From positions 2,239 to 66,238 of the forward strand of contig DAIDAM010000003.1 in assembly GCA_027310625.1 (NCBI GenBank): a DNA stretch of 64,000 bases, in the 5' to 3' direction. This DNA is from a bacterium. Lineage in GTDB: Bacteria; Patescibacteriota; Minisyncoccia; UBA6257; 2-01-FULL-56-20. The stretch's first letter is position 1. Each line of letters starts with the position of its first letter. The position numbers and the translations under genes were made by a program. A model generated the notes under the pieces. It saw only the letters and a program-made list of their open reading frames with translations, was not told the origin of the DNA and did not search any database. Positions 2,158 to 62,271 of the stretch are shown here, in pieces.

Positions 2158-3555
2158 ATGCTTTCGGAATTCCTCGGAGTAATTTGGCAGATAATCTACA
2201 CAGGCGGCACGGGAGTTTTGAATTTCCTCGCGATAAGCTGGTGGCTTTGGACGTTTATAATACTTCTCGGGCTCACTTATTCGGCATGGTTCACGTGGAG
2301 AAAATTCATCTACAAGGAAAAAACCGATTTCATACTGCTGGAAATTAAAATCCCCCGCGAGCTGAAAGAAAATCCGAGGGCAATGGAGCAGGTTTTTACC
2401 GCGGTGCATTCTTTGCGAAACGTCTACAGCACATGGCTGGAGAAATGGTGGGACGGGGAAATAACGCGCTGGTATTCTTTTGAAATAGTAAGTTTCGGCG
2501 GCGAAACGCATTTTTACGTCCGCCTTTACAAAAAACAAAAGTCCCTGATGGAAGCGGCGTTTCTTTCTTATTATCCGGATATCGAGCTGGTGGAAGTTGA
2601 CGATTATATTGACCGTCTGCCGAAAAACGTATCGGAGATGTACGAGCAGGGATACGACATTTGGGGGAGCGAGATTGCGCTGACCAGAGAAGCGGCTTAT
2701 CCGATTAAAACGTACGTTGATTTCGAGTCGTCTCCCGACGAAGAAAAACAGTACGATACAATGTCGAGTTATCTTGAGTTTTTCTCAAGTTTAAAGAAGG
2801 AGGAGATAATAGCTTTTCAAATACTGGTGGCGCCAGCCGACCCCGACTGGTGGGAAAAATGGAAGGGACTTTTGGACAAACTCAACCAAAGAGCGGAAGA
2901 CAAACAAAAATCGGCAACCGCCACTTCCTTCCCGAGCGATTACGCAATCGGGCCGCTGCCGAGGTTTGAAATAGTGAAGCCGACAAAAGACGAGCTGAAA
3001 TTGCTGAAAACCGCTTTCAGAACTCCGGGGGAAACCGCCATCCTTGAAAAAGTCGCCAACAATTTGTCCAAGTTGGCTTTCGACACGACTATCCGCTTTA
3101 TCTATTTGGCGCCGAGGTCGATATATTACGATACCATACCGAGGCGAGGAGTGAAGGGAATTTTAGCCCACTTCGCCTCCCTCGACTTGAACTCCCTGGA
3201 TTACAAAATAAAAACCGACGTCGGTTCTGCGAGAGTGCTTCTCTTCAAGCCGCCGTACATCTTCCCAAAAAAAAGAGCGGAAAAAAGAAAAGCAAGAATT
3301 CTTTATAACTACATTCACAGAGAAATCCCGGAAGAAAATTTCGTCGGCGAAGTAATAACGTCGAGTTTATTCAGCTGGAGTTTTTCATCGAAGCGTTTTG
3401 AAATGAACACGGAGTGCCTGGCGACGATTTTCCATCCGCCGACGTACCTTTCGCTGACGGCGCCCCATATCGAGCGTGTAGAAAGCAAAAAGGGAGGGCC
3501 GCCCGCCGGACTGGCGATTTTCGGCGGCGAAGAAAACGTCGAAAAATTAAAATGA
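2158..3555 (+). CDS. hypothetical membrane-anchored protein (N-terminal 2 TM + ~400 aa soluble domain), upstream partner of ATPase copy 1
   Basis: 465 aa, no recognisable catalytic motif. Hydrophobic N-terminus 'FLAISWWLWTFIILLGLTYSAWF'. Same strand and close spacing with the ATPase at 4212. Confidence 0.5.
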   Translation: MLSEFLGVIWQIIYTGGTGVLNFLAISWWLWTFIILLGLTYSAWFTWRKFIYKEKTDFILLEIKIPRELKENPRAMEQVFTAVHSLRNVYSTWLEKWWDGEITRWYSFEIVSFGGETHFYVRLYKKQKSLMEAAFLSYYPDIELVEVDDYIDRLPKNVSEMYEQGYDIWGSEIALTREAAYPIKTYVDFESSPDEEKQYDTMSSYLEFFSSLKKEEIIAFQILVAPADPDWWEKWKGLLDKLNQRAEDKQKSATATSFPSDYAIGPLPRFEIVKPTKDELKLLKTAFRTPGETAILEKVANNLSKLAFDTTIRFIYLAPRSIYYDTIPRRGVKGILAHFASLDLNSLDYKIKTDVGSARVLLFKPPYIFPKKRAEKRKARILYNYIHREIPEENFVGEVITSSLFSWSFSSKRFEMNTECLATIFHPPTYLSLTAPHIERVESKKGGPPAGLAIFGGEENVEKLK

Positions 3556-4211: not shown

Positions 4212-5651
4212 ATGCCAAAAGCCGGCAAAATTCAGATAATAAAATACGCCCCGCCTCCGCCGGAACTGCCAGTTTACGGAAGAGTGAAAACAAGGGACGT
4301 TTCTTTCGTCGGAAGGACAAACTACGTCGCCGCTCTTGAAGAAAAAAGATTTATTTTCGGGATAAAACGCATAGACCGCAGGCGCCACCTTTACATAATA
4401 GGAAAAACCGGCGTGGGCAAATCGAAGATGCTCGAACTGCTCATGCGGCAGGACATCGCCTACGGATACGGCGCGTGCTTCATCGACCCTCACGGCGACG
4501 TTATTGATTCGCTCCTGGATTTCGTTCCGGAAGAAAGAATGGACGACGTGGTTATCATCGACCCCTCGGACGCGAAACACCCGGTATCTTTCAATCCGCT
4601 CGCAAACGTAATAGCCGATTTCAAGCACCAGTTGGCGCAGGACCTGATTGAAGTGATGCAAAAACAGTTCGGAGCGAACTGGACTCCGCGACTGGAGCAC
4701 GTTTTTCGCTTCAGCGTTCTTGCGCTTCTCGATTATCCGCACGCGACCATGCGCGGAATGATTTCGCTTTTGACGGACAGGAATTACCGACAAAAAGTTA
4801 TCGAATACATAGAAGACGACATGGTGCGGCGTTTCTGGGCTATTGAGTTCGCCGATTGGAGCGAAAAGTTCGACACCGACGCCATCATTCCGCTTGTCAA
4901 CAAACTCGGGCAATTCCTTTCCAACCCGTTGCTCCGCAACATTTTCGGTCAAAAGGAAAACAAAATTGATTTGGACCGCTTCATGAAAGAGAAAAAAATA
5001 ATTTTCATCAATCTTTCCAAGGGACGGCTGGGAGAAGAAAACTCAAGCTTTTTCGGCTCTATGTTTCTGACAAAAATAAAGCAGGCAGGGATGGCGAGGG
5101 CAAGAATGAGGCCCGAAGAACGGGAGGACTTTTATTTGTACGTGGATGAGTTTCATAATGTCGTGACGGACACTTTTGAAAACCTTCTTACCGAATCGAG
5201 AAAATACGGCCTCTGCATAACCATCGCGCATCAGTACTTCGGCCAGCTGACGTCAAGGGTGCAATCGGCGGCGCTGGGAAACTCCGGAAACATAATTGTT
5301 TTCCGCGTCGGCGGTGAGGACGCGGTGAAACTCAAGCCGGAAATGTCGCCCGTATTTGATACGAAAGATATGATAAATCTCGGCACGCAGGAATTTTACA
5401 TAAAGGAAACGATAGACGGCGAAACCTATGACCCGTTTTCCGCAGAAACGCTGAAAGTAATGCCCGCGCCGCATCCGTCTTACCGGGAACGAATCATTGA
5501 GCAGTCGCGCGCGAAGTATTCCATCACCGCCGACGCGGCGAAAAAACTTATAAAAGAGGAGGAGTCGTCAATACTCCGGCATTCCCGCGAAAAAGCGATT
5601 ATAGAGGGTTCAACAAGCGCGGCGGAAAAAGAACCGGAACCATTAATTTAG
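4212..5651 (+). CDS. FtsK/HerA/TraD(VirD4)-superfamily P-loop ATPase (DUF87-like), copy 1
   Basis: 479 aa. Walker A 'IIGKTGVGKS', Walker B 'FYLYVDEFHN', Arg-finger/ATQ-type motif 'RKYGLCITIAHQYFGQL'. Paralogous to 11901-13652, aligning from 'RRHLYIIGKTG' to 'IAHQY'. Confidence 0.8.
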   Translation: MPKAGKIQIIKYAPPPPELPVYGRVKTRDVSFVGRTNYVAALEEKRFIFGIKRIDRRRHLYIIGKTGVGKSKMLELLMRQDIAYGYGACFIDPHGDVIDSLLDFVPEERMDDVVIIDPSDAKHPVSFNPLANVIADFKHQLAQDLIEVMQKQFGANWTPRLEHVFRFSVLALLDYPHATMRGMISLLTDRNYRQKVIEYIEDDMVRRFWAIEFADWSEKFDTDAIIPLVNKLGQFLSNPLLRNIFGQKENKIDLDRFMKEKKIIFINLSKGRLGEENSSFFGSMFLTKIKQAGMARARMRPEEREDFYLYVDEFHNVVTDTFENLLTESRKYGLCITIAHQYFGQLTSRVQSAALGNSGNIIVFRVGGEDAVKLKPEMSPVFDTKDMINLGTQEFYIKETIDGETYDPFSAETLKVMPAPHPSYRERIIEQSRAKYSITADAAKKLIKEEESSILRHSREKAIIEGSTSAAEKEPEPLI

Positions 5652-6245: not shown

Positions 6246-7775
6246 ATGAAGATAGAACTCTCAAAAATCGTCAAACCTTCATCGGCTCCGGTGTTTTTGG
6301 TTGATGACGCAAGAAAAATAAAGGAGCACAAACTTTTTAAATTTCTCGGCGCGGAAGACAAAGATTACATCGTAAGGCTCTTTGAAGAAAACGGGGACGA
6401 AGAGTTTCTGCGTTTTATTGTCCTGCCGTCGGGCAAAAAGGCCTTAATCGGCTTTCTCAAAAACAAGAAAACTTCTTTGAGAAAAATGATAATCGCGATG
6501 CGCCGCGTAATTTCCCTTGCACACCGCGAAAAAATAAAAGAAATCGCAGTCAATCTCGGAGATTTTTTGACCGCCGGCTCAAAAAGCGAAGAAATTGCCG
6601 AACTTCTCGGAACGCAACTGGAACTGGCCAATTTTGAGTTTACCGGATATAAAACGGCGCCGAAAGAAGGATGGAATTTTGTCGAACGCGTTTTTGTAAT
6701 CGGTAAGGAAAGCTCACCCTCCAAAATTTCAAAAAGAAATTTAGGAGGGCAAGCCCTCAAAAAAGCGCTCGCCGACGGGAAAATAATCGGCGAAGAAATA
6801 AACAAAGCAAGAGCGCTATCGAATACGCCCGGCGGGGATATGACCCCACAACGACTTGCTGAGGCGGCAAGTCGTGAGGGGCGCAGCGCCGGCTTTCGCG
6901 TGAAGATTCTCAAAGAAGACCAAATCAAAAAACTCGGTATGGGCGGCGTGCTCGGGGTCGCCAAGGGCTCAGCAGAACGGCCGCGGTTCATTATTATGGA
7001 ATATTTCAAAGGAAAGAAAGGCGAAAAACCGGTCGTTCTCGTCGGCAAGGGCGTGACTTTCGACACGGGCGGGTTGAACCTTAAGCCCGACAATTATATC
7101 TACGAGATGCATATGGATATGTCCGGCGGCGCGGCGGTGATTCACGCCATCGCGGCGCTGGCGCGCTTGAAGGTAAAGAAAAATATCGTCGGCTTGGTTC
7201 CGGCGGTTGAAAATATGCCTTCCGGTTCGAGCTATCATCCGGGAGATTTGCTGAAAACGCTCGGCGGAAAAACAATCGAGGTTCTGAATACCGATGCCGA
7301 AGGGCGAGTGATTCTCGCGGACGCGCTTGAGTACGCAAAAAAATACAAGCCGCAACTCGTCATTGACGTCGCGACTTTGACGGGCGCGGCGATTGCGGCT
7401 TTGGGTCAGCGTGCGTCGGCGATTTTTTCTACCGACAAAAAAACAGAAAAAGAAATGATTGACGCCGGAGAAAAAACAGGGGATTACGTTTGGCCGCTGC
7501 CGCTTTGGGAAGAATACGAAGAGGAAATAAAAGGAACATTCGGCGATTTCGCGAATGTCGGCAAAACGCGCTACGGCGGCGCGATAACCGGCGCGGTGTT
7601 TCTCTGGCAATTCGTTAAAAACCAAGCTCCAAGTTCTAATCTCCAAGATTTTCCTTGGGTTCATCTCGACATCGCGCCGCGGATGACGACAATCGAAAGC
7701 GACTCGCTCGCCAAAGGCGCCGCCGGCGCGTCCATCGCGCTTTTAGTAAAGTTTTTACGAGAAGCAAATAGATAG
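6246..7775 (+). CDS. pepA: leucyl aminopeptidase (M17 family)
   Basis: M17 signature 'NTDAEGRVILADAL', 'VGKGVTFDTGG', 'DMSGGAAV'. Length 509 aa. Confidence 0.9.
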   Translation: MKIELSKIVKPSSAPVFLVDDARKIKEHKLFKFLGAEDKDYIVRLFEENGDEEFLRFIVLPSGKKALIGFLKNKKTSLRKMIIAMRRVISLAHREKIKEIAVNLGDFLTAGSKSEEIAELLGTQLELANFEFTGYKTAPKEGWNFVERVFVIGKESSPSKISKRNLGGQALKKALADGKIIGEEINKARALSNTPGGDMTPQRLAEAASREGRSAGFRVKILKEDQIKKLGMGGVLGVAKGSAERPRFIIMEYFKGKKGEKPVVLVGKGVTFDTGGLNLKPDNYIYEMHMDMSGGAAVIHAIAALARLKVKKNIVGLVPAVENMPSGSSYHPGDLLKTLGGKTIEVLNTDAEGRVILADALEYAKKYKPQLVIDVATLTGAAIAALGQRASAIFSTDKKTEKEMIDAGEKTGDYVWPLPLWEEYEEEIKGTFGDFANVGKTRYGGAITGAVFLWQFVKNQAPSSNLQDFPWVHLDIAPRMTTIESDSLAKGAAGASIALLVKFLREANR

Positions 7776-7815
7776 GATAGATTAGGATAATTTGTAAATT
7801 CTTATTTTGTCTATA

Positions 7816-7842
7816 CCCTCATTCGCGCGAATGGTAGAATAA
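7816..7842. promoter_or_regulatory. 27-bp operator/promoter motif CCCTCATTCGCGCGAATGGTAGAATAA (14-bp perfect palindrome CATTCGCGCGAATG fused to a TAGAAT -10-like box), copy 1, ~30 nt upstream of arsR-like gene
   Basis: The identical 27-mer occurs at 10078-10104. A 26-bp perfect-palindrome variant occurs at 8171-8196. All three sit immediately upstream of consecutive genes. Confidence 0.7.
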
Positions 7843-7872
7843 GAAAAGAGGTAAGGCAATCCAATGATATAA

Positions 7873-8148
7873 TTGCAATTGCAAACCATGAAAGAACTCG
7901 AACGAAATTTGAAAGCATTAGCCAATCGCAGGCGGCTGGCCATTTTGAAGTATCTCAAAGAAAATCGCGAAGCGTCGGTAGGCGATATTGCGGCAGAAAT
8001 AAATCTTTCGCTAAAAGCAACTTCAAAACATTTGGGAGTTCTCGCAGCGGCGGATATTGTGGAAAAAGACCAAAGAAGCTCGCAAGTATTTTATCGGCTT
8101 GCTTCTCCCGTAAAATCGGCGGCAAGGCATATTGTGTTACTTCTTTAA
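7873..8148 (+). CDS. ArsR/SmtB-family HTH transcriptional regulator
   Basis: 91 aa. 'NRRRLAILKYLKENREASVGDIAAEINLSLKATSKHLGVLAAADIV' is the classic ArsR wHTH. Confidence 0.85.
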   Translation: MQLQTMKELERNLKALANRRRLAILKYLKENREASVGDIAAEINLSLKATSKHLGVLAAADIVEKDQRSSQVFYRLASPVKSAARHIVLLL

Positions 8149-8170
8149 CTTTAGTGTTTTAACATCTTGA

Positions 8171-8196
8171 TTCCACCATTCGCGCGAATGGTGGAA
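8171..8196. promoter_or_regulatory. 26-bp perfect palindrome TTCCACCATTCGCGCGAATGGTGGAA (operator variant, copy 2) upstream of Zn-ribbon gene A
   Basis: The sequence equals its own reverse complement. It shares the CCATTCGCGCGAATGG core with the copies at 7816 and 10078. Confidence 0.7.
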
Positions 8197-8249
8197 TGTG
8201 GAAAACAAATGGAAAACAAAAAACTTTTGAAACAATCATCAAAAGTAAA

Positions 8250-10064
8250 ATGAATTCCGAAACGAGAAATTGTCAAAACTGCAAGCAGAATTTCGTCATT
8301 GATTCCGATGATTTTGCTTTCTATGAAAAAATGAAAGTTCCGCCGCCGACGTTCTGCCCGGAATGCAGAATGATAAGGCGATTCGTCTGGCGCAACGAGC
8401 GGCATCTTTTCCGGAGAAAAGACGATGCGACCGGAATGGTTCGACCCGGTTCACCACCACAGGAAATTTTCTCGAGTTTTCCGCCGCAGGTAACTGTAAA
8501 GGTTTATAACCATGATTACTGGTGGAGCGACAACTGGGACCCGTCGGACTACGGACGCGATTACGACTTTTCCCGTCCGTTTTTTGAACAATTCAGAGAA
8601 CTGTTTTACAGCGTCCCGTTGCCCGCAAGGAGCGTTTTCGACACAACCAATTCTGAATATTGCGACAACGCTTCTTATGTAAAAAATTCGTATCTTTCTT
8701 TCAATGTCGGATACTTGGAAAACTCCGCTTACTGCGTTACAACCTTCTACAGCAAAGATAATTTAGACCTCTACGAAGCAAGACACGCCGAGCTATCTTA
8801 TGAAAATTACATGTCGGACGAGGCGTATCGCGTCTTTTTTTCCGTTAATATTGAGGATTCAACCGACATCTGGTTTTCGCGAAATCTTATGGGGTGCAAT
8901 AACTGCTTCGGATGCGTGAATCTGCGCAACAAGTCCTATTACATTTTCAACAAACCGTACTCCAAAGAGGATTACTTCGCCTACATAAAACAATTTGACC
9001 TCGGCTCTTACAAAACAAAAGAAGAATTGTTGAATCGCGCCCGCAAATTCTGGATGCAGTTTCCGATGCGCTTCACGCTCGCGATAAACGTCGTTAATTC
9101 CACAGGCGAACACATTGAGCACTCGCGGAACCTGAAAAGGTGCTATTCCATCCACAAAGGAGAAAATATGGCTTACTGTCAAATTTTTGAACCGCCGGGG
9201 GCCGATTCGTACGATTGCACGGTTTTTGGCTGGGGCGCATCGCGGAGTTATGAATCCCTTGTCTGCGGCGAAGAGTGCTATGATTTAAAGTTTTGCATTG
9301 AGTGCTGGCCGAGTTTAACCAATCTTGAATATTCCGCCCATTGTCATTCCTCCAATAATCTCTTCGGCTGTATTGGTTTGAAGAAAAAAGAATACTGCAT
9401 TTTGAACAAGCAATACTCGAAAGAAGAGTATTTCAAACTCCGCGAAAAAATAATACAACATATGAACGAAATGCCCTACATAGGCAAAATCCGAAATCAG
9501 AAATCCGAAATCCGAAACATTGAATACAAATACGGGGAATTTTTTCCGGCGGAGCTTTCTCCGTTCGCTTACAACGAAACACTTGCAAACGACTTCTTCC
9601 CGCTGACGAAAGAAGAAGCGGAGGCAAAAGGATTTCTCTGGCGCGAACAGGAACGGAGGGAATACGAAACGACGATAAACGCTTTGGATTTGCCGGACAA
9701 CATCAAAGACGTTCAGGATTCCATTCTCAAGGAAATCATAAAATGCGGCGACTGCGGACGGGCGTACAGAATAATTGAGATGGAGCTTCAGTTTTACCGC
9801 CGCATCCCGCTTCCGCTGCCGCGAAAATGTCCGGAGTGCAGATTCAAAGACAGATTCAAATTTGTAAACCCGCCGAAGTTGTGGAAAGGGAAATGTCAGT
9901 GCGCGGGAGAAACCAGTGACCAGCGACCAGAGACCAGTTACAGAAACGCTGTAAAGCATTTTCACGGAGCGGAACATTGCCCGAATGAATTTGAAACATC
10001 TTACCAACCCAACAGGCCGGAAATTGTTTACTGCGAAAGCTGTTATAACAGCGAGGTTGCTTGA
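8250..10064 (+). CDS. multi-zinc-ribbon protein A (N-terminal CxxC...CPxCR ribbon, internal Cys-containing repeats, C-terminal double ribbon)
   Basis: Start moved to 'MNSETRNCQNCKQNF' by analogy with paralog B ('MNNETKTCQNCKNQF'); the ORF-track start at 8196 lies inside the palindrome. Motifs 'KVPPPTFCPECRMIRR', 'NCFGCVNLRNKSYYIFNKPYSKEDYF', 'FGCIGLKKKEYCILNKQYSKEEYF', 'CGDCGRAYRIIEMELQFYRRIPLPLPRKCPECR'. Confidence 0.7.
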   Translation: MNSETRNCQNCKQNFVIDSDDFAFYEKMKVPPPTFCPECRMIRRFVWRNERHLFRRKDDATGMVRPGSPPQEIFSSFPPQVTVKVYNHDYWWSDNWDPSDYGRDYDFSRPFFEQFRELFYSVPLPARSVFDTTNSEYCDNASYVKNSYLSFNVGYLENSAYCVTTFYSKDNLDLYEARHAELSYENYMSDEAYRVFFSVNIEDSTDIWFSRNLMGCNNCFGCVNLRNKSYYIFNKPYSKEDYFAYIKQFDLGSYKTKEELLNRARKFWMQFPMRFTLAINVVNSTGEHIEHSRNLKRCYSIHKGENMAYCQIFEPPGADSYDCTVFGWGASRSYESLVCGEECYDLKFCIECWPSLTNLEYSAHCHSSNNLFGCIGLKKKEYCILNKQYSKEEYFKLREKIIQHMNEMPYIGKIRNQKSEIRNIEYKYGEFFPAELSPFAYNETLANDFFPLTKEEAEAKGFLWREQERREYETTINALDLPDNIKDVQDSILKEIIKCGDCGRAYRIIEMELQFYRRIPLPLPRKCPECRFKDRFKFVNPPKLWKGKCQCAGETSDQRPETSYRNAVKHFHGAEHCPNEFETSYQPNRPEIVYCESCYNSEVA

Positions 10065-10077
10065 GTGGAAATTATGT

Positions 10078-10104
10078 CCCTCATTCGCGCGAATGGTAGA
10101 ATAA
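10078..10104. promoter_or_regulatory. operator/promoter motif copy 3 (identical 27-mer to copy 1) upstream of Zn-ribbon gene B
   Basis: CCCTCATTCGCGCGAATGGTAGAATAA, ~50 nt upstream of the start at 10153. Confidence 0.7.
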
Positions 10105-10152
10105 ACAAAACAACAAAATCATAGGCGCTATGACTAGTCATAGCGGTATAAA

Positions 10153-11880
10153 ATGAACAACGAAACCAAAACCTGTCAAAATTGCAAAAACCAGTTTGCC
10201 GTCGAGCCAGATGATTTTGATTTCTACGCCAAAATCAAAGTCCCGCCGCCGACGTTCTGCCCGCCGTGCCGACTGCAGAGGCGGCTGGCGTTTTTCAATA
10301 TTTTCAATCTCTATAAACGGCCGTGCGATTTATGCAAGAAAGATTTCATTTCGATGTATCGAGCCGACACGCCGTACACTATTTACTGCCCGAAATGCTG
10401 GTGGAGCGACGATTGGGATACTTTTGAATACGGCAGAGAATACGATTTTTCGCGGCCGTTTTTCGAGCAATACAACGAACTACTGCATCGAGTTCCGCTC
10501 ATCGGCGCTTCGATAGATATTCCGACAATGGAAACATCGCCGTACACGAACCATGCCGGCCATCTCAAGAATTCTTACCTTTTGTTCCACGTCGATTATG
10601 TCGAAGATTCCGCTTACGGATTTAACACATTCAACAATAAATCATTATTTGACTGTACCAATTTAATTCTATCCGAATTATCTTATGACATAATTCACGC
10701 CTACAAGATATCGCGCTCCGCCGGCTCGCAGGATTTGCTCGAATCCATCAATTGTTTCTTTATGAAGGATTCGGAAAATTGCCAAGATTGTTTTGCGTCC
10801 GCGAATTTACGGAATAAAAAACACTACATTTTCAATGAGCCGTATTCCAAAGAGGACTATTTTGACGAAATCAAGAAATGGAATTTAGGTTCTTATAAAA
10901 TTTATCAAGAAGTTAAAAAACGGGCGGAAGAGCACTGGAAAAAATTTCCGCCAGACCCGATTTATCAAAAATTTGCCATTAATTCAACGGGGAACAGGAT
11001 ATATGAGTCGAAAAACTGCAAGGAATGTTTTGAGGTCTCTTATGCCGAGGACTGCAAATGGGCGATGATGATGTACATTCGGACAATTAAGGATTGTTAC
11101 GACGTCGTCAGTTGGGGAAATAATATGTCGCGTTCGTACGAGTGCTGCAATGTCGGCGAGGATGTTTCCGAAGCGCGGTTCTGCAGCGAATCCGGACTGG
11201 GATTGATGGACGCAGAATATTGCAAACTCTCGACGGGCAACCATCATTTCGGCTGCGTATCCGTAAAGAAAGGCGATTACGTAATTCTAAACAAAAAATA
11301 TTCAGAGGATGAGTACCGGAAATTGCGCGAAAAAATTATCGCGCAAATGAACGAGTTGCCCTACGTTTCAAGGGCGACCAGCAACCGGGGACCAGAGACA
11401 AGGGAGATAATTTACAAATACGGGGAATTTTTCCCGGCGGAAATCAGCCCCTTTGCCTACAACGAAACGATTGCAAATAATTTCTTTCCCTTGGAAAAAG
11501 AAAAGGTCTTGGCGAACAGCTGGCGATGGAACGAACCGGAAACGCACGCCTACTCAATTACAAAACACGCCCAAGATTTGCCCGACCACATAAAAGACGC
11601 CGGTGACGATATTTTGAAAGAGGTAATCGCCTGCGCGAAATGCGGACGGGGATTCAGAATCATACGAATGGAACTCGATTTTCTGCGGCGGATGAATTTG
11701 CCTTTGCCGCGCGAGTGTCCGTTTTGCCGCATCGGCGAGAAATTCAATTACTGGGTCAAAGAATCGCGGCTGGTGAAACGAACCTGCGACAAATGCGGCG
11801 CGGAATTCGACAGCCCGCACACGAAAGAGAACTATCCGAAAATTCTTTGCAAAAAACACTGGCTGGAAGAAGTGGTGTAA
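10153..11880 (+). CDS. multi-zinc-ribbon protein B (tandem paralog of A)
   Basis: 575 aa, collinear with A: 'KVPPPTFCPPCRLQRR', 'YDFSRPFFEQYNEL', 'ANLRNKKHYIFNEPYSKEDYF', 'FGCVSVKKGDYVILNKKYSEDEYRKLREKIIAQMNELPYV', 'CAKCGRGFRIIRMELDFLRRMNLPLPRECPFCR'. It carries an extra CxxC...CPKCWW ribbon where A has lost the cysteines. Confidence 0.7.
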   Translation: MNNETKTCQNCKNQFAVEPDDFDFYAKIKVPPPTFCPPCRLQRRLAFFNIFNLYKRPCDLCKKDFISMYRADTPYTIYCPKCWWSDDWDTFEYGREYDFSRPFFEQYNELLHRVPLIGASIDIPTMETSPYTNHAGHLKNSYLLFHVDYVEDSAYGFNTFNNKSLFDCTNLILSELSYDIIHAYKISRSAGSQDLLESINCFFMKDSENCQDCFASANLRNKKHYIFNEPYSKEDYFDEIKKWNLGSYKIYQEVKKRAEEHWKKFPPDPIYQKFAINSTGNRIYESKNCKECFEVSYAEDCKWAMMMYIRTIKDCYDVVSWGNNMSRSYECCNVGEDVSEARFCSESGLGLMDAEYCKLSTGNHHFGCVSVKKGDYVILNKKYSEDEYRKLREKIIAQMNELPYVSRATSNRGPETREIIYKYGEFFPAEISPFAYNETIANNFFPLEKEKVLANSWRWNEPETHAYSITKHAQDLPDHIKDAGDDILKEVIACAKCGRGFRIIRMELDFLRRMNLPLPRECPFCRIGEKFNYWVKESRLVKRTCDKCGAEFDSPHTKENYPKILCKKHWLEEVV

Positions 11881-11900
11881 AGATGGTATAGTTTTGCGAA

Positions 11901-13652
11901 ATGGCTCCGTTTTTCAAAACCGACAAGCAGAAAGACGTCGTTTATTTCGCGCGCACCGATTTCCGCAATCAGAATCGGCTTTTCGGCATTAAAAGAAAAG
12001 ACCGCCGCCAGCACACGTACGTCGTCGGCAAAACCGGCACCGGTAAAACCGCGCTCCTCAACAATTTAATTGTTCAAGACATCGCAAACGGCGAAGGCGT
12101 CTGCGTCATTGACCCGCACGGCGAGCTCGTCGAGGGATTGCTCGACAAAATTCCGGCCGAGCGGATAAACGACATCATCTATTTCAATCCCGCCGACCCC
12201 GACCACCACATCGGTTTCAACATTCTGGAATTGCCCGACCCGAAATACAAACATCTGGTCGCTTCCGGTTTGATGGGAATTTTCACCAAAATCTGGTCGA
12301 ATGTCTGGTCGGCAAGAATGGAATACATTTTGAATAACGCCGTTTTGGCGCTTCTCGAAAATCCCGGCTCGACTTTGCTCGGCATCAACCGCATTCTTGT
12401 CGACAAGGACTACCGACAGCAAATCATTTCCAACGTCAAAGACCCGGTGATCAAGGCGTTTTGGGTCAACGAATACGAACAGTGGCGCGACCAGTTCCGG
12501 AACGAAGCCATCGCCCCGATTCAAAACAAAGTCGGCCAGTTCCTTTCGACGGCGATGATTCGAAACATCGTCGGGCAGGAAAAAAGCACGATAAACATTT
12601 TCGATTTGATGAACGAGAAAAAAATACTTCTCGTGAATGTCTCCAAGGGAAGAATAGGGGAGGACAATTCGGCGCTTCTGGGCGCGATGCTCATCACCAA
12701 AATTCAGCTTTCGGCGATGGAACGCGTCAGGATTCCCGAAGACGAGCGTCCGGATTTTTATCTTTACGTCGACGAGTTCCAGAATTTCGCCACCGATTCT
12801 TTTGCCGGCATTTTGTCCGAAGCAAGAAAATATCGCCTGAATCTCATCGTCGCGCATCAGTACATCGGACAATTGGTCACCGATGTTTCCACAAAAGTCC
12901 GCGACGCGGTCTTCGGGAACGTTGGGACAATGATTCTTTTCAGAATAGGCGCGGCGGACGCGGAATTTCTGGAAACGGAATTTGAACCGGAATTCGCCAT
13001 TCAGGACATGGTCAATCTGCCGAACTACCGCATTTACCTGAAATTGATGGTTGACGGCATCACCTGCCGTCCGTTTTCCGCGCAAACTTTGCCGCCGTTC
13101 AATCTCGAATCATCGGAGGAAATAAAAGATAAAATCATCGCCGTTTCGAGGAAACTTCATTCAAAGCCGAGCGTGGAAGTGGAAAAGGCGATCAATCGCT
13201 GGAGCGGAATGATGGGCGAAACTGCGGCACAGCTGCCCGGAGCCAAAATGTTTCCGGCTGTTTGCTCGAACTGCGGTAAAAACACCATGGTGCCTTTCGA
13301 GCCGGCGAAGGGCAGACCGGTTTACTGCGACGATTGTTTTGAAAAGATACAATCGGGAAAACTCGCTCCCGTCGGCGGCGCAGGAAGACAGGGAAAACCA
13401 TCGGAAGAATTCTCGCGCGACCTTGCGGAACTCGGAATAGAATTCGAATTCAGAAAACCGCCGGCGAGACGTTTGGAAGAAGTGCCCTCGGCGATTCCCG
13501 TTGAAAGAAAAGGAATTTCGCTCGCGGAATTGAAGCCGCAGGAGGAGAAAGAGAGAAAAGAAAAGACGAAGCAGGCGGGCGAAAAACCGAAAGTGGATAT
13601 AAACGAACTCCGCGAAGCGATAAAAGAATCGCTTAAGAAAGCAGAGGGTTAA
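11901..13652 (+). CDS. FtsK/HerA/TraD(VirD4)-superfamily P-loop ATPase (DUF87-like), copy 2, with C-terminal zinc ribbon and K/E-rich tail
   Basis: 583 aa. Walker A 'YVVGKTGTGKT', Walker B 'FYLYVDEFQNF', 'RKYRLNLIVAHQYIGQL'. C-terminal 'CSNCGKNTMVPFEPAKGRPVYCDDCF' followed by 'KPQEEKERKEKTKQAGEKPK'. Confidence 0.8.
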   Translation: MAPFFKTDKQKDVVYFARTDFRNQNRLFGIKRKDRRQHTYVVGKTGTGKTALLNNLIVQDIANGEGVCVIDPHGELVEGLLDKIPAERINDIIYFNPADPDHHIGFNILELPDPKYKHLVASGLMGIFTKIWSNVWSARMEYILNNAVLALLENPGSTLLGINRILVDKDYRQQIISNVKDPVIKAFWVNEYEQWRDQFRNEAIAPIQNKVGQFLSTAMIRNIVGQEKSTINIFDLMNEKKILLVNVSKGRIGEDNSALLGAMLITKIQLSAMERVRIPEDERPDFYLYVDEFQNFATDSFAGILSEARKYRLNLIVAHQYIGQLVTDVSTKVRDAVFGNVGTMILFRIGAADAEFLETEFEPEFAIQDMVNLPNYRIYLKLMVDGITCRPFSAQTLPPFNLESSEEIKDKIIAVSRKLHSKPSVEVEKAINRWSGMMGETAAQLPGAKMFPAVCSNCGKNTMVPFEPAKGRPVYCDDCFEKIQSGKLAPVGGAGRQGKPSEEFSRDLAELGIEFEFRKPPARRLEEVPSAIPVERKGISLAELKPQEEKERKEKTKQAGEKPKVDINELREAIKESLKKAEG

Positions 13653-13717
13653 AAGTTATCAGACAACAGTAATCAGACATCAGAAGTAATTTTTAATTCT
13701 CTGATTTCTGATGACTA

Positions 13718-14443
13718 ATGATTAATCTCTTAACTATGCATTTTGATATTATTACTATCTTCCCGAAGATTTTCAATTCTTTTTTAAAGGAGTCGCTTAT
13801 TAAGCGCGCCATCAAAAAGAAAATCATCGAGGTAAAAATAACGAACCTCAGGAATTTTTCCGACGACAGAAAGCACAGGAAAATTGACGACCGTCCCTAC
13901 GGCGGGGGACCGGGAATGGTCTTACAAATTGGACCTATCTATCGCGCAGTCCAATTTGTAATTTCAAAGTTCTCCGCCAAAGGCGGATCCGCCTCCGGAG
14001 GAAAAGTTCAAAGTTCAAAAACTCGGACAATTCTTTTTTCAACGCGCGGCAGAAAATTTGACGCAAAAACGGCGAAGCGGCTTTCAAAATACGGTTCGCT
14101 TATTCTGATTTGCGGACGCTACGAGGGCGTTGACGAAAGGGTTGCGAAATACATCGCCGACGAAGAAATCTCCATCGGCGATTACGTTTTGAACGGCGGA
14201 GAAGTGGCGGCAATGGCGCTTATGGAAGCGGTAAGCAGATTTTTGCCGGGATTTCTCGGCAAAACGGAATCGCTTGAAGAAATAAAGGGTCATTACGCCA
14301 CTTACACCCGTCCTGCCGAATTCGTCCCCGACGTTTCTTCAAGAAAAAAATTTTTTCCGAGAACGCCGAGGAAGTGGAGCGTTCCGAGCGTTCTTATGTC
14401 GGGACACCATGAAAAAATAAACAAATTGAGAAAATCGCGGTAG
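13718..14443 (+). CDS. trmD: tRNA (guanine37-N1)-methyltransferase
   Basis: 'HFDIITIFP', 'DDRPYGGGPGMV', 'LICGRYEGVDERV', 'SIGDYVLNGGE'. The true start may be the Met at 13736 (MHFDII...). Confidence 0.9.
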   Translation: MINLLTMHFDIITIFPKIFNSFLKESLIKRAIKKKIIEVKITNLRNFSDDRKHRKIDDRPYGGGPGMVLQIGPIYRAVQFVISKFSAKGGSASGGKVQSSKTRTILFSTRGRKFDAKTAKRLSKYGSLILICGRYEGVDERVAKYIADEEISIGDYVLNGGEVAAMALMEAVSRFLPGFLGKTESLEEIKGHYATYTRPAEFVPDVSSRKKFFPRTPRKWSVPSVLMSGHHEKINKLRKSR

Positions 14444-14449
14444 AGCAAA

Positions 14450-15859
14450 ATGCCGATTTACGATGTAGCTTTTTACGGAGCGCTGTCGTTTATTGCAGGG
14501 GCGCTTGCCGCCGGATTGAATTTATCGGCCGCAAAAGCGGTTTTCTTTTTTGCAATCCTCGCCCTTATTCTCGCCTACGTAAAAATCTGGGGAAAATTTC
14601 CGGCTTTTTTCTTCATTTTTTTCTTTGTCTTCGGAACGTTTTATTACAATTTTTTCTTTGCCATCAAAGAATCAAGCCAAAAAATAACTTTTGAAAAAAC
14701 CGTAGAATTTTCCGGAATGATAACAAGCGAGCCGCAACTCAACGAAAAATTCCAGAAAGCGACCATTGAACTTAATCCGCCATTTTCAGGGGAAATAAGC
14801 GTTCTTGCGCCGCTTTATCCTCAAATAAACTACGGCGACGTAATTGAAGCAAAAGGAGAAATAAGGCCATCCGTTTCAAAAAACCAAAGCCCCGTCTCAT
14901 TTTTCCCTGAATTAAAAATCATGGAAAGTCATCGCGGCTTCTGGCTGAAAGAAAAACTTCTTAACATCAAAAAGGGGATGATATCGCAGTTTAGAAATCT
15001 CCTGCCGGGCGATCCCGCGGCGCTTTTAAGCGGCATGACGCTCGGCTGGCGCGGCGATTTCACGGAAAAATTCAAGAAAGAAATGTCCTTGAGCGGCACG
15101 ACGCACATCGTCGCGCTTTCGGGATACAACATAACCATTCTTGTCATCGCCGTCGCCGCCGTTTTCGGCAACTGGCTCTCGCGGAGAATGACGTTTTTCC
15201 TCACCTCTTTCATAATTCTTCTCTTTATTTTTATGGTCGGCGCCGAAGAATCTGTGGTGCGCGCCGCAATAATGGGCTTCATTGCCCTCATTGCAAAGGA
15301 ATCGGGCAGAAGATTCAGTTTCAGGAACGCGATTGCGCTCACGGCGGCGGCAATGATTCTTTTCCGTCCCGATGTTTTATTCGATATCGGATTCATTCTC
15401 TCCTTTCTGAGCTTAATCGGGATAATCTATATCGCCCCGGAGCTGAAAGAGATTTTCAGAATCGGCGAATCGGGAAGTTTTATGTCATGGAAAGAAAACG
15501 CGATAACGACATTGTCGGCGCAGATGATGGTCGCGCCCGTTCTCATAAACGTTTTCGGAAATTTTTCGCTGACGAGCATCGCCGCGAACGTTCTCATTCT
15601 TGAATTCGTCCCGTTGACGATGCTTTTGGGTTTTGTGATCGCCGTTTTCGGATGGATTTTCTATTACGCCGGTTTCATTTTTTCGGTTTTCGGGAATATT
15701 CTTCTCCGCTACGAAATCGGGGTCATAAAATTTTTCGCGTTCTGGAGTATGCCCGTTTTTTCGGGAACACGCTCGCTGATTTTTTCTTTTTTTTATTACA
15801 TTGCATTGCTCGTTTTTCTTCTCTACAGAAAGGAAATTAAATCCCGCGAATTGATATAA
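14450..15859 (+). CDS. comEC: ComEC/Rec2 competence protein, N-terminal part (DUF4131 + competence channel domain)
   Basis: Polytopic membrane protein with 'GTTHIVALSGYNITIL' (the ComEC 'HxxAISGxHv' motif). It ends with TGA 8 nt before the MBL-domain ORF. Confidence 0.75.
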   Translation: MPIYDVAFYGALSFIAGALAAGLNLSAAKAVFFFAILALILAYVKIWGKFPAFFFIFFFVFGTFYYNFFFAIKESSQKITFEKTVEFSGMITSEPQLNEKFQKATIELNPPFSGEISVLAPLYPQINYGDVIEAKGEIRPSVSKNQSPVSFFPELKIMESHRGFWLKEKLLNIKKGMISQFRNLLPGDPAALLSGMTLGWRGDFTEKFKKEMSLSGTTHIVALSGYNITILVIAVAAVFGNWLSRRMTFFLTSFIILLFIFMVGAEESVVRAAIMGFIALIAKESGRRFSFRNAIALTAAAMILFRPDVLFDIGFILSFLSLIGIIYIAPELKEIFRIGESGSFMSWKENAITTLSAQMMVAPVLINVFGNFSLTSIAANVLILEFVPLTMLLGFVIAVFGWIFYYAGFIFSVFGNILLRYEIGVIKFFAFWSMPVFSGTRSLIFSFFYYIALLVFLLYRKEIKSRELI

Positions 15860-35524: not shown

Positions 35525-36448
35525 ATGATTCTTAATTCTCGATTTGTTTTCTTCGGCACGCCGGAATTTGCCGCAACAATCCTTGAAAAGCTGATAAGTT
35601 CCGGATTTGTTCCGGAGGCGGTTGTCTGCAACCCCGACCGCCCCGTCGGCAGGAAGAAGGTTATCACTCCCCCGCCGGTGAAACTGCTAATTATGAAGCA
35701 GGAAGCAAGAATCAAGAAGCAAGTTAAAATTTTTCAGCCAGAAAAATTAGATAAACAATTTCTTGATTCATTATTCTTGATTCATGATTCTTTTGATTTT
35801 TTTGTCGTTGCCGCCTATTCCCAAATTCTCCCTAAAGAAATAATCGAAATACCGCGGCTCGGAACAATCGGCGTCCATCCTTCGCTTCTGCCGAAATACC
35901 GCGGCGCCTCCCCCATCCAAGGCGCGATACTGAACGGAGAAAAGGAAACAGGCGTAACGCTTTATTTGATGGACGAGAAAACGGACCATGGGAAAATAGT
36001 ATCAAGTATCAGGTATCAAGTATCAGGGAATGAGAATTACAAAACATTGGAAAAAGAACTTGCGGAACTCGCGGGAAATCTGCTTGTGGAAACGTTGCCG
36101 AAATTCATCAAAGGAGAAATAAAACCCGTGCCGCAGGACGAATCAAAGGCGACCTACACGAAAAAATTCACGACTGAAGACGCGTTCATTGATGAAAAAA
36201 CTCTGGAAGAAGCGCTAAACGGAGAAAATGAAGAAACGGCTGAAAAAATCTATCGCAAAATTCTGGCTCTCAATCCCGAGCCGGGAACATGGACGTATGC
36301 GCGAGCACTGGAACATTCCAACGTTCTTGAGAATGTTGGAATGTCGTCTTCCGGCAAACGGATTAAGATTTTGGAGGCAAAAATTGAAAACGGAAAACTT
36401 GTTCTGAAAAAAATCCAGATTGAAGGAGAAAAACCCAAAGCCGTTTAG
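35525..36448 (+). CDS. fmt: methionyl-tRNA formyltransferase
   Basis: 'VFFGTPEFAATILEKL', 'NPDRPVGRKK', 'GVHPSLLPKYRGASPIQ'. Contains short in-frame repeat words (aagaatcaagaagcaag; agtatcaagtatcaggtatcaagtatcag). Confidence 0.9.
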   Translation: MILNSRFVFFGTPEFAATILEKLISSGFVPEAVVCNPDRPVGRKKVITPPPVKLLIMKQEARIKKQVKIFQPEKLDKQFLDSLFLIHDSFDFFVVAAYSQILPKEIIEIPRLGTIGVHPSLLPKYRGASPIQGAILNGEKETGVTLYLMDEKTDHGKIVSSIRYQVSGNENYKTLEKELAELAGNLLVETLPKFIKGEIKPVPQDESKATYTKKFTTEDAFIDEKTLEEALNGENEETAEKIYRKILALNPEPGTWTYARALEHSNVLENVGMSSSGKRIKILEAKIENGKLVLKKIQIEGEKPKAV

Positions 36449-62003: not shown

Positions 62004-62197
62004 AATTACTTATTTAAAGTAGTATAGCTTTGTTTAATAGATTTACGGCTTCAATCTTACAATACTAGTGGGCCAGGAAGGACTCTCCGCCCGAGGCGGA
62101 TGCGCCCTGGGCGCAGAACCTAGAACCTCGAGGTATATGAAACAAAACTTCGTTTTGTTTCATCAATCAGGTCGCTCGTCGAAGATTAGAATATTTG

Positions 62198-62271
62198 TGG
62201 GCATGCCTGGACTCGAACCAGGAACCGCTAAGGTATAAGCTTAGTGCTCTAACCAGTTGAGCTACATGCCC
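62198..62271 (-). tRNA. tRNA-Ile (anticodon UAU)
   Basis: Reverse-complement fold: GGGCATG acceptor, TAGCTCAACTGGTTAGAGC D-arm (Ile-like), anticodon arm CTAAG-CTTATAC-CTTAG, T-arm CCTGG-TTCGAGT-CCAGG, discriminator A. Confidence 0.65.

What the first reader, a model, noticed from the sequence alone, without database searches (positions are those of the whole stretch)
7816..13652. ArsR-controlled regulon candidate: a 26-27 bp perfect palindrome repeated in front of arsR, two tandem multi-zinc-ribbon paralogs, ending in an FtsK/HerA/VirD4-like ATPase
Three copies of CCATTCGCGCGAATGG-containing operators sit immediately upstream of three consecutive genes: 7816-7842, 8171-8196 and 10078-10104. 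Two are identical 27-mers and one is a 26-bp self-complementary variant. The first gene is an ArsR/SmtB repressor, so this looks like autoregulation plus control of the next two genes. The palindrome is fused to a TAGAAT -10-like hexamer, so repressor binding would occlude the promoter. The regulated genes are two ~600-aa paralogs full of CxxC ribbons and internal repeats of the type N(C/L)FGC..L(R/K)(N/K)K.Y.I.NK.YS(K/E)E(D/E)YF. They are followed with 20 nt spacing by a P-loop ATPase carrying its own C-terminal zinc ribbon. I do not recognise this architecture as any named system. It could be a metal- or stress-inducible DNA/protein translocation or defence module.
Basis: partly seen in the sequence, partly recalled or inferred. 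Interest (0 to 1): 0.85.

Follow-up and report, generated by a model that had tools for sequence, protein, structure and literature searches.

The report
Shared operator before zinc-ribbon/ATPase genes
The three palindromes are real copies of a promoter-linked DNA motif that almost always brackets a small, metal-blind ArsR-type regulator gene in Patescibacteria. The genes behind them belong to a huge uncharacterised zinc-ribbon protein family that forms tandem arrays next to two soluble VirD4-like ATPases.

Summary
The 14-bp core CATTCGCGCGAATG occurs exactly three times in 64 kb, 45-52 nt before arsR, ZnA and ZnB.

- The motif has a 28-bp frame, ATTC-N4-ATTC-N4-GAAT-N4-GAAT. It is conserved across Patescibacteria and lies upstream of 27 and just downstream of 26 of 29 orthologous arsR genes, so this ArsR is its likely binder.
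- The motif is not specific to this module. In other genomes it precedes many unrelated housekeeping genes, and only about 4% of Zn-family genes carry it.
- It is directional: the gene lies on the side with the intact outer GAAT in 70 of 74 cases. This fits an operator that overlaps the promoter core.
- The ArsR has no cysteine and no metal site, so metal induction is unsupported.

The more unusual part is the proteins.
- ZnA and ZnB belong to a family with no Pfam model and about 5,200 clusters at 50% identity.
- The predicted structure (pLDDT 90.7) is double zinc-ribbon modules flanking a beta-solenoid, with no structural match.
- The genes form co-directional arrays of 1-10 ancient paralogs.
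- The only family strongly co-located with them is a pair of soluble, membrane-anchor-less VirD4/TrwB-like ATPases. The literature describes these ATPases as unexplained orphans.

Function remains unknown.

The parts
4212..5651 (+). ATPase2: soluble VirD4/TrwB-like (T4CP-like) P-loop ATPase, paralog of the ATPase at 11901. In other genomes it is the usual upstream bracket of Zn arrays.
   Evidence: Pfam TrwB_AAD_bind 3.6e-12, DUF87, TraG-D_C. 43% identical to 11901-13652. No hydrophobic segment, max KD19 1.0. Sits directly upstream of Zn genes in many loci.
6246..7775 (+). M17 leucyl aminopeptidase. A syntenic neighbour that is embedded in Zn arrays in several genomes.
   Evidence: Peptidase_M17 5.6e-112. 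Found inside or beside arrays in L005, L009, L014 and L085.
7813..7840 (.). Motif copy 1 in the 28-bp frame, ATACCCTCATTCGCGCGAATGGTAGAAT. Upstream operator of arsR.
   Evidence: The same position is occupied upstream of 27 of 29 arsR orthologs.
7865..7873 (+). TGaTATAAT extended -10-like element between motif copy 1 and the arsR ATG. Similar TGn-TAnnAT elements follow the motif in other arsR loci at variable distance.
   Evidence: Read from the sequence and from the upstream regions of L082-L088. Inference only; no transcription start data.
7888..8148 (+). arsR: 86-aa minimal ArsR/SmtB-fold winged-helix protein, cysteine-free and basic (pI 10.2).
   Evidence: NF033788 68 bits, HTH_5 and HTH_20. 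0 Cys. About 1000 orthologs at 70-90% identity. No conserved metal ligands.
8170..8197 (.). Motif copy 2, a perfect 28-bp palindrome ATTCCACCATTCGCGCGAATGGTGGAAT. It lies 22 nt after the arsR stop and 52 nt before the ZnA ATG.
   Evidence: A copy directly after arsR is present in 26 of 29 orthologous loci.
8250..10064 (+). ZnA: 604-aa member of the Zn-ribbon/beta-solenoid family.
   Evidence: No Pfam, NCBIfam, PADLOC or PHROG family. 7989 homologs scored. 44% identical to ZnB.
10075..10102 (.). Motif copy 3, TGTCCCTCATTCGCGCGAATGGTAGAAT. Identical to copy 1 over 27 nt. Lies 48 nt before the ZnB ATG.
10127..10144 (.). 18-bp perfect palindrome GCTATGACTAGTCATAGC in the ZnB leader, 8 nt before the ATG. 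Role unknown.
   Evidence: Not followed up.
10153..11880 (+). ZnB: 575-aa member of the same family. It has four zinc ribbons (C8/11/36/39, C58/61/79/82, C494/497/522/525, C545/548/566/569) around a duplicated Cys-rich beta-solenoid.
11901..13652 (+). ATPase: soluble VirD4/TrwB-like P-loop ATPase, 20 nt after ZnB and probably co-transcribed with it. In other genomes it is the usual downstream bracket of Zn arrays.
   Evidence: TrwB_AAD_bind 7.7e-14, DUF87, TraG-D_C. No hydrophobic segment. No terminator-like site in the gap. Adjacent to Zn genes in many loci.
13245..13346 (+). C-terminal CxxC-x17-CxxC zinc ribbon of the ATPase (residues 449-482). It has the same Cys spacing as the second ribbon of each Zn-protein module.
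   Evidence: zf_Tbcl_2 4.6e-17 and TIGR04272 1e-17. hhalign against the C-terminal ribbon of the family gives E 4e-4, probability 35%. Sub-threshold zf_Tbcl_2 hits in ZnA and P0462.

Best explanation
Two layers are present.

(1) Regulation.
- The three palindromes are copies of a lineage-wide 28-bp motif made of four GAAT/ATTC units, consensus cT-aTTC-TCTA-ATTCG-CG-CGAAT-ARGM-GAAT-AG.
- The motif is the operator of the adjacent 86-aa ArsR-fold protein. Its promoter-proximal outer GAAT(A) doubles as the -10-like element.
- Bound protein, probably two dimers on four half-sites, would therefore occlude RNA polymerase.
- In this window the circuit autoregulates arsR and co-regulates two further units, ZnA and ZnB-ATPase.
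- The regulator has no metal or thiol ligands, so the signal is not metal. Across genomes the same operator sits in front of many unrelated, mostly housekeeping genes. This makes it a pleiotropic regulator whose target set changes from genome to genome, not the dedicated switch of this module.
- Shown: motif conservation, its linkage to arsR, its position and its directionality. Inferred: binding, repression and the signal.

(2) The regulated genes.
- ZnA and ZnB belong to a very large, uniform protein family found here almost only in Patescibacteria records. The proteins are cytoplasmic and consist of double zinc-ribbon modules at both ends of a duplicated beta-solenoid.
- The genes form co-directional tandem arrays of ancient paralogs.
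- Their only strongly co-located partner is a pair of soluble VirD4/TrwB-like ATPases. One of these carries the same CxxC-x17-CxxC ribbon type.
- My working model is that the Zn proteins are intracellular partners (adaptors or clients) of these hexameric translocase-type ATPases, in a process unrelated to a classical type IV secretion channel. This model is inferred and low-confidence. What they act on is not known.
For: Motif is real and conserved:
- 18 hits at 14 or more of 16 positions in 1.14 Mb, against 0-2 in shuffles.
- At least 120 metagenome contigs carry the motif.

Linkage to arsR:
- All 7 loci fetched through ArsR orthologs have the motif upstream, one of them cut by an IS1595, and 6 of 7 have it again after the stop.
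- Over all loci, 27 of 29 have it upstream and 26 of 29 downstream. Two distant paralogs at 35% identity lack it.
- ArsR is the largest single class among motif-downstream ORFs, 15 of 124.
- A divergent ArsR in L203 is flanked by a correspondingly altered site.

Regulatory position:
- 148 of 179 sites are intergenic although 90% of the DNA is coding.
- The median distance from site centre to start codon is 61 nt.
- Among asymmetric sites the gene lies on the intact-GAAT side 70 times against 4.
- No other fixed element lies downstream in the logo.

No metal site.

Broad targets.

Zn family:
- Size and uniformity.
- Structure.
- Arrays and ATPase adjacency: 27 of 79 loci have an ATPase and 26 of those are within 1.5 kb of a Zn gene. 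The next most frequent neighbour family is in 11 loci.
- In loci not selected through Zn genes, the close ATPase orthologs are near Zn genes in 4 of 4 cases.
- Ancient paralogy: 162 of 170 proteins are closer to a protein of another genome than to any neighbour.

Orphan status of Patescibacteria T4CP homologs: 5,713 in 2,918 genomes, of which only 148 are near virB4 (PMC12102498).
Against: - No binding or expression data exist. The ArsR-operator assignment rests on genomic linkage only.
- Many loci were fetched through the motif itself, which biases the counts. The ArsR-selected set is small (7 loci plus the window and L014).
- In front of arsR there is also a canonical TGnTATAAT element downstream of the motif at variable distance. 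At those promoters the site could lie upstream of the core promoter and act differently, for example as an activator.
- Many downstream genes are housekeeping genes, which would also fit a strong-promoter class.
- The ATPase-Zn adjacency could be inherited synteny among related genomes. The T4CP-like pair is reported across Patescibacteria classes (PMC12102498), whereas the Zn family was retrieved here mostly from Parcubacteria-type records, so the ATPases may not need Zn proteins.
- The shared-ribbon homology is weak: hhalign probability 35%.
Confidence: 0.6

Rival explanations
1. The motif is a promoter class read directly by RNA polymerase, with the housekeeping or an alternative sigma factor, and not an ArsR operator. 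ArsR would be just one of many genes driven by it.
For: Strong directionality, 70 against 4, and a fixed distance to start codons. No separate -10 lies downstream in the logo. Many downstream genes are highly expressed housekeeping genes such as L21, RF, ClpP and tRNA synthetases. The scan found no canonical sigma-70 promoter at these three sites.
Against: Promoters have no reason to be 28-bp palindromes with a conserved inner ATTCGCGCGAAT dyad. 62 sites have both outer half-sites. The motif brackets arsR on both sides in about 90% of orthologous loci regardless of the next gene, which a generic promoter does not explain. Only 3 type-1 copies occur in this 64-kb window of several dozen genes, too few for a general promoter.
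Confidence: 0.15
2. The unit motif-arsR-motif is a small mobile or recombinogenic cassette. The palindromes would be its repeat ends, similar to REP, MITE or attC elements, so their presence before the Zn genes would reflect insertion history rather than regulation.
For: arsR is always bracketed by two copies and sits in different contexts: before Zn genes, LigT-like, DinB, M23 peptidase. The whole unit is present between M17 and the Zn gene in the window and L085 but absent at the same place in L009 and L005. Spacer variants are homogeneous within a genome. An IS1595 lies next to one copy in L088.
Against: No recombinase travels with the unit. Most motif copies are solitary and sit in front of unrelated genes with a consistent orientation and distance to the start codon. 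Copies share nothing beyond the 27-32 bp. ArsR orthologs are 70-90% identical and look vertically conserved.
Confidence: 0.1
3. One reading: a dedicated metal- or stress-inducible ArsR regulon that switches on a DNA or protein translocation or defence module.
For: Three operators precede three consecutive transcription units that end in a translocase-type ATPase. The same arrangement occurs in L085, L084 and L014.
Against: The regulator has no metal or thiol ligands. The motif is mostly found before unrelated genes. About 96% of Zn genes and all ATPase genes seen lack it. The Zn proteins have no PADLOC or PHROG match. The Zn family is absent from viral contigs and consists of conserved ancient paralogs.
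Confidence: 0.05
4. The Zn arrays and the two VirD4-like ATPases are neighbours by conserved synteny only. The ATPases work with the distant type IV secretion system or alone, and the Zn proteins have an unrelated role.
For: The T4CP-like pair is reported across Patescibacteria, about 2 per genome (PMC12102498). 52 of 79 Zn loci show no ATPase within 8 kb. TrmD and M17 are also recurrent neighbours. More divergent ATPase homologs at 47% identity or less are not next to Zn genes.
Against: The ATPase family is by far the most frequent neighbour, 27 loci against 11 or fewer for any other family. It is almost always directly adjacent and co-directional, often 19-50 nt apart. The bracket order ATPase2-Zn(n)-ATPase recurs with variable n. 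Both protein types carry the CxxC-x17-CxxC ribbon type.
Confidence: 0.35

Closest known systems
ArsR/SmtB-family autoregulated repressors with 12-2-12 inverted-repeat operators (SmtB, CzrA, ArsR). The properties of these named proteins are taken from established knowledge.
   Same: Winged-helix HTH_5 fold above the NCBIfam cut-off. The gene is preceded by a long palindrome of about 12-13 bp arms. The site overlaps a -10-like hexamer, which is the geometry of a repressor. The regulator gene is first in the regulated cluster.
   Different: Only 86 aa, with no alpha3N or alpha5 metal ligands and no cysteine. The site is built of four GAAT units at 8-bp spacing. A second operator directly follows the gene, often overlapping its stop codon. 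Targets are many and unrelated, not a metal-efflux operon.
Type IV coupling proteins (VirD4, TrwB, TraD)
   Same: P-loop ATPase that matches TrwB_AAD_bind, T4SS-DNA_transf and TraG-D_C. The closest solved structure by sequence is TrwB.
   Different: No N-terminal membrane anchor. No virB4 or relaxase nearby. Scores are far below the NCBIfam equivalog cut-offs. One paralog has a C-terminal CxxC-x17-CxxC ribbon and a K/E-rich tail. They occur as a paralog pair bracketing Zn-ribbon gene arrays.
HerA/FtsK-type ATPase operons with accessory proteins (HerA-NurA, HerA-based defence systems)
   Same: A hexameric-translocase-type ATPase encoded next to non-ATPase partner genes. Weak HerA and mad8 HMM hits.
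   Different: The partner proteins have no nuclease, Sir2 or other effector domain. The module looks conserved rather than patchy. The partners are multiplied into arrays of ancient paralogs.
Beta-solenoid proteins (left-handed beta-helix acyltransferases, curli CsgA, insect antifreeze proteins)
Tandem VirB2 pilin arrays of Patescibacteria (PMC12102498)
   Same: Tandem arrays of 2-11 diverged paralogs in the same phylum.
   Different: Those are small secreted pilins near virB4. These are 570-600-aa cytoplasmic zinc proteins near orphan T4CP-like ATPases.

Membership tests
ArsR/SmtB transcription factors | Winged helix-turn-helix of the HTH_5/ArsR type, above the curated threshold | tested here: met
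   NF033788 68 bits (cut-off 55). PF01022 38.3 bits (cut-off 22). PF12840 42.4 bits (cut-off 27).
ArsR/SmtB transcription factors | Inducer-sensing site: alpha3/alpha3N Cys motif, alpha5 His/Asp/Glu site, or reactive Cys pair as in BigR and HlyU | tested here: not met
   0 Cys and 2 His in the window protein. In 40 aligned orthologs the only invariant His is in the recognition helix, and no Cys is conserved.
ArsR/SmtB transcription factors | Palindromic operator in front of its own gene (autoregulation) | tested here: met
   The sequence criterion is met: a 28-bp dyad lies 35-80 nt upstream of 27 of 29 orthologs. Actual binding cannot be tested with these tools.
Type IV coupling protein (VirD4/TrwB/TraD) | P-loop NTPase domain of the TrwB/VirD4 type | tested here: met
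   PF10412 51.8 and 46.3 bits (cut-off 20.5). PF12696 and PF02534 are above their cut-offs. TrwB is the only PDB sequence hit.
Type IV coupling protein (VirD4/TrwB/TraD) | N-terminal transmembrane anchor | tested here: not met
   The maximum 19-residue Kyte-Doolittle mean is 1.18 and 1.01, and the Walker A motif begins near residues 40-65.
Type IV coupling protein (VirD4/TrwB/TraD) | Encoded with a type IV secretion system (virB4) or a relaxase | tested here: not met
   No ORF of 400 aa or more in the 64-kb window has a VirB4/CagE, relaxase or other T4SS domain. The only secretion ATPase is a T2SSE protein at 55208-56437. Three of these ORFs have no Pfam match: 2158-3555, 42104-43981 (625 aa) and the 699-aa ORF at 36445-38544, which was not scanned. 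The literature reports only 148 of 5,713 Patescibacteria T4CP homologs near virB4.
Type IV coupling protein (VirD4/TrwB/TraD) | Equivalog-level similarity to TraD, VirD4 or CD1115 models | tested here: not met
   The best NCBIfam scores are 62 and 55 bits, against cut-offs of 250-647.
Known anti-phage defence systems (PADLOC) | Match of the component proteins to a defence-system model | tested here: not met
   The Zn proteins have 0 hits. The ATPases have only weak mad8 and HerA hits.
Left-handed beta-helix acyltransferases | Hexapeptide-repeat Pfam match and a close structural match | tested here: not met

The most novel reading that the evidence does not exclude
The Zn-ribbon/beta-solenoid paralog arrays together with the two soluble VirD4-like ATPases form one previously undescribed intracellular machine of Parcubacteria-type Patescibacteria. 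In one 621-kb contig the array takes up at least 2.8% of the sequence. This would explain what the 'orphan' coupling-protein homologs of this phylum do. The Zn proteins would be paralog-specific adaptors or clients that dock through the shared CxxC-x17-CxxC ribbon. A second, smaller novelty is that motif-arsR-motif may be a portable 'repressible promoter cassette'.
Probability: 0.35. Interest if true: 0.8.

Novelty: new variant of a known kind. Interest (0 to 1): 0.6.

Why it matters
Very little is known about how Patescibacteria, which have tiny genomes and few regulators, control their genes. I found no prior description of this motif in the paper searches run here.
- A 28-bp motif with an identifiable candidate binder, hundreds of copies in public data and a clear promoter geometry is a directly testable entry point. 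EMSA, DAP-seq and metatranscriptome start-site mapping could all address it.
- The protein side may matter more. The family has about 5,200 clusters at 50% identity, no Pfam model, no structural relative and up to 10 tandem copies per genome. It is one of the larger blind spots in this phylum.
- Its consistent pairing with the soluble VirD4-like ATPases gives a concrete hypothesis for a question the recent literature left open: why almost every Patescibacteria genome carries about two coupling-protein homologs far from any secretion system.

Tried and rejected
- Metal or redox sensing by the ArsR: rejected, as there are no ligands.
- Dedicated regulon: rejected, because the motif precedes 83 different Pfam families.
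- Known RNA element: none in 7000-14500 at E up to 1 apart from one chance hit.
- Canonical sigma-70 promoters or intrinsic terminators at the three sites: none. The only hairpin called is the 18-bp palindrome at 10126-10145, on the minus strand.
- Sequence search of family profile A2 against PDB: nothing below E 0.077.
- Pfam on separated segments: only sub-threshold zf_Tbcl and zf_Tbcl_2 hits, and the core has none.
- DNA-mimic idea for the solenoid: rejected, since net charge is only -5 to -8 and pI is about 6.
- Phage origin of the Zn family: no relative in IMG/VR and no PHROG match.
- Fused domains as functional clues: among the top 150 representatives only one GNAT fusion (P0495), possibly a gene-call artefact.
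- Literature: no paper found on this family or motif.
- ArsR in most Zn loci: absent within 8 kb in 77 of 79.

Full report
**Observation.** The 14-bp dyad CATTCGCGCGAATG occurs exactly three times in the 64-kb window, at 7820, 8177 and 10082. With up to two mismatches there are 4 hits against 0.6 expected, and none of 100 shuffles reached that number. The stretches 7816-7842 and 10078-10104 are identical 27-mers. The middle copy is a perfect palindrome of 28 bp (8170-8197). The copies end 45, 52 and 48 nt before the start codons of three consecutive genes, and the fourth gene follows after 20 nt. Small corrections apply. Only the middle copy contains CCATTCGCGCGAATGG. ZnA most likely starts at 8250, as its homologs do.

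**Genes.**
- 7888-8148 encodes an 86-aa ArsR/SmtB-fold protein. NF033788 scores 68 bits against a cut-off of 55, and HTH_5 and HTH_20 also match.
- 8250-10064 (ZnA, 604 aa) and 10153-11880 (ZnB, 575 aa) are 44% identical paralogs. They have no Pfam, NCBIfam, PADLOC or PHROG family.
- 11901-13652 is a P-loop ATPase that matches TrwB_AAD_bind, DUF87/HerA and TraG-D_C. It has a C-terminal CxxC-x17-CxxC ribbon (zf_Tbcl_2 4.6e-17, TIGR04272).
- A 43%-identical paralog without the ribbon lies at 4212-5651.
- Neither ATPase has a hydrophobic segment.
- M17 aminopeptidase (6246-7775) and TrmD (13718-14443) flank the cluster.

**The motif is a lineage-wide element.** In 79 loci from different Patescibacteria genomes, fetched through the Zn protein, the frame ATTC-N4-ATTC-N4-GAAT-N4-GAAT is matched at 14 or more of 16 positions 18 times in 1.14 Mb. 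Shuffles gave 0-2. Two sequence types exist.
- Type 1 has a CGCG centre (TCTCTAATTCGCGCGAATnnnnGAAT), and the window's three copies belong to it.
- Type 2 (ACATTCCAACATTCTnnAGAATGTTGGAATGT) is nearly invariant between genomes and has one copy in the window, inside fmt at 36315.

**Link to ArsR.** The ArsR has about 1000 orthologs at 70-90% identity.
- I fetched seven loci through the protein alone. All have a type-1 site 35-60 nt upstream of the arsR ATG, one of them truncated by an IS1595. Six have a second site right after arsR in front of the next gene.
- That next gene varies: Zn genes (L084, L085), a 2'-5' RNA-ligase-like gene, DinB, an M23 peptidase.
- L085 repeats the window's order M17-arsR-Zn-Zn-Zn-ATPase.
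- Over all loci held, 27 of 29 orthologs have the core upstream and 26 of 29 have it downstream. The downstream copy often overlaps the stop codon (CTTCTCTAA...). Two 35%-identical paralogs lack it.
- One divergent ArsR (L203) is flanked by sites whose outer half-sites are changed in the same way on both sides.
- The unit motif-arsR-motif is absent at the same M17-Zn junction in L009 and L005.

- Of 124 ORFs downstream of sites, 15 are ArsR, 5 are Zn family and 104 are other.
- Sixty-two of the others carry 83 different Pfam families. These include TGT, TatD, PIF1, GluRS, ArgRS, ClpP, TopA, DinB, MPG, RF-1, YchF, L21 and YdjM.
- Conversely, only about 8 of about 215 Zn genes in the 79 genome loci have a site of either type.

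**Geometry.**
- 148 of 179 sites are intergenic although 90% of the DNA is coding.
- The median distance from site centre to start codon is 61 nt.
- At sites where only one outer half-site is intact, the gene lies on that side 70 times against 4.
- The logo extends to cT-aTTC-TCTA-ATTCG-CG-CGAAT-ARGM-GAAT-AG and shows no further fixed element downstream.
- One caveat: arsR promoters also carry a TGnTATAAT-like element after the motif at variable distance (7865-7873 in the window). The geometry at arsR itself may therefore differ.

**The regulator is metal-blind.** The window protein has no Cys and two His. In 40 aligned orthologs no Cys is conserved, and the only invariant His lies in the recognition helix. 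The alpha3N and alpha5 sites of metal-sensing ArsR/SmtB proteins (established knowledge) are therefore absent.

**The Zn family.**
- Word-indexed searches scored 5,548 and 7,989 homologs. All are about 570-600 aa, all are 'hypothetical', almost all carry no Pfam domain (two of the 240 listed have a PF09606 hit), and those with names come from Parcubacteria-type lineages.
- An exhaustive profile search found 5,177 clusters at 50% identity (2,173 at E 1e-30 or better), with uniform architecture.
- Invariant cysteines define four ribbons. The second ribbon of each terminal module has exact CxxC-x17-CxxC spacing. The N- and C-terminal modules are homologous to each other.
- AlphaFold2 with 116 sequences gives pLDDT 90.7 and pTM 0.91. 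The model shows ribbon modules at both ends of a duplicated beta-rich solenoid.
- The proteins are mildly acidic, carry 28 Cys, and have no hydrophobic (membrane-spanning) segment.
- No relative occurs in IMG/VR.

**Arrays and partner.**
- Within 8 kb either side, loci hold 1-10 Zn genes (mean 2.7), all co-directional. L005 has 10 in 18 kb of a 621-kb contig.
- Array members are ancient paralogs. Within-locus identity has a median of 39%. 162 of 170 proteins are closer to a protein of another genome (median best 57%) than to any neighbour.
- Clustering of all neighbouring ORFs shows one outstanding partner, the VirD4-like ATPase family, with 36 genes in 27 loci. The next family is in 11 loci.
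- In 26 of those 27 loci the ATPase is within 1.5 kb of a Zn gene. The typical order is ATPase2 - Zn(n) - ATPase (- TrmD), often with gaps of 19-50 nt.
- In loci selected through the motif rather than through Zn genes, the close ATPase orthologs lie next to or within a few kb of Zn genes in 4 of 4 cases. More divergent homologs do not.
- The ATPase ribbon aligns weakly to the family's last ribbon (hhalign E 4e-4, probability 35%), and relatives give sub-threshold zf_Tbcl_2 hits.

**Comparison with what is known.**
- A 2025 survey counted 5,713 VirD4-type coupling-protein homologs in 2,918 Patescibacteria genomes. Only 148 were near virB4. The authors raised possible exaptation, because the gene is dispensable in a cultured Saccharibacterium whose secretion system is essential (PMC12102498).
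- The window fits that picture. No VirB4 or relaxase domain was found among its ORFs of 400 aa or more.
- The ATPases meet the domain criterion of coupling proteins but fail three others: the membrane anchor, the genomic association, and the equivalog thresholds. I therefore call them VirD4-like, not coupling proteins.
- The regulator is an ArsR-fold protein that fails the sensing-site criterion.

**Mechanism and confidence.**
- I put about 0.6 on the combined reading. ArsR binds the four-GAAT dyad, which overlaps the promoter core. It thereby autoregulates arsR and co-regulates ZnA and ZnB-ATPase here, as part of a wide and evolutionarily fluid target set.
- That the Zn arrays and the ATPase pair form one functional system I rate at roughly 0.35-0.5. 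What it does is unknown. My preferred guess is that the Zn proteins are paralog-specific adaptors or clients of the ring ATPases inside the cell.

**Novelty.** The regulatory part is a new member of a known kind. The protein module has no described counterpart but no demonstrated function. Overall I file it as a new variant of known kinds, and I state the categorically new reading separately.

Noticed in passing
window 36315-36342 (inside fmt, 35525-36448); also L043 3788, L056 3403 and 7939, L058 4054, L061 7949, L084 2626, L088 6063, L096 6562: A second, nearly invariant 28-32-bp palindrome, ACATTCCAACATTCTnnAGAATGTTGGAATGT, uses the same four-GAAT frame but different spacers and a variable centre. 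It coexists with the ArsR-linked type in the same genomes. It lies upstream of some Zn genes, and in the window and L056 it lies inside coding sequence. Its binder and role are unknown.
   Followed up: partly
L084 8259, L087 8253, L088 8253, L014 7827 and about 12 further loci: The operator copy downstream of arsR often overlaps the arsR stop codon. The last codons ...CTT CTC TAA form the left arm of the dyad, so the gene end and the next promoter's operator are physically fused.
   Followed up: partly
L088 6981-7880 and 7900-8000: An IS1595-family transposase gene sits immediately upstream of one arsR copy, and the upstream operator there lacks its left half. The same contig carries a second arsR paralog (4861-5121) with intact sites.
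   Followed up: no
window 10127-10144: An 18-bp perfect palindrome, GCTATGACTAGTCATAGC, lies 8 nt before the ZnB start codon. It could be a leader hairpin or another binding site.
   Followed up: no
window 62197-62271 (- strand): A tRNA-Ile gene with anticodon UAU. This is the less common way of reading AUA, without lysidine modification.
   Followed up: no
P0495 (731 aa, from the representative library): One family member carries an N-terminal GNAT acetyltransferase domain fused to the Zn-ribbon/solenoid protein. It is a single case and may be a merged gene call.
   Followed up: partly
L087 8756 (inside the DinB gene) and L008 1379 (before a YdjM-like gene): Motif copies occur before or within genes that belong to the LexA regulon in other bacteria (DinB, YdjM). 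Other targets include MPG glycosylase, PIF1-type helicase, TopA and TatD. There may be a DNA-maintenance bias among targets, but I did not test it statistically.
   Followed up: no
window 11901-13652 and 4212-5651: Both ATPases match phrog_5156, a phage protein family of unknown function with an 824-position profile, at E about 1e-58 over its C-terminal half. Phage relatives of these soluble VirD4-like ATPases therefore exist.
   Followed up: no
L010 484-1071, L051 7551-7979, L045 7556-8017 and similar: Other recurrent neighbours of the Zn/ATPase loci, seen in 6-11 loci each: a 175-aa membrane protein just upstream of ATPase2, a CutA-like 105-aa protein, and a 143-aa cytidylyltransferase-like protein just upstream of Zn genes.
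   Followed up: no
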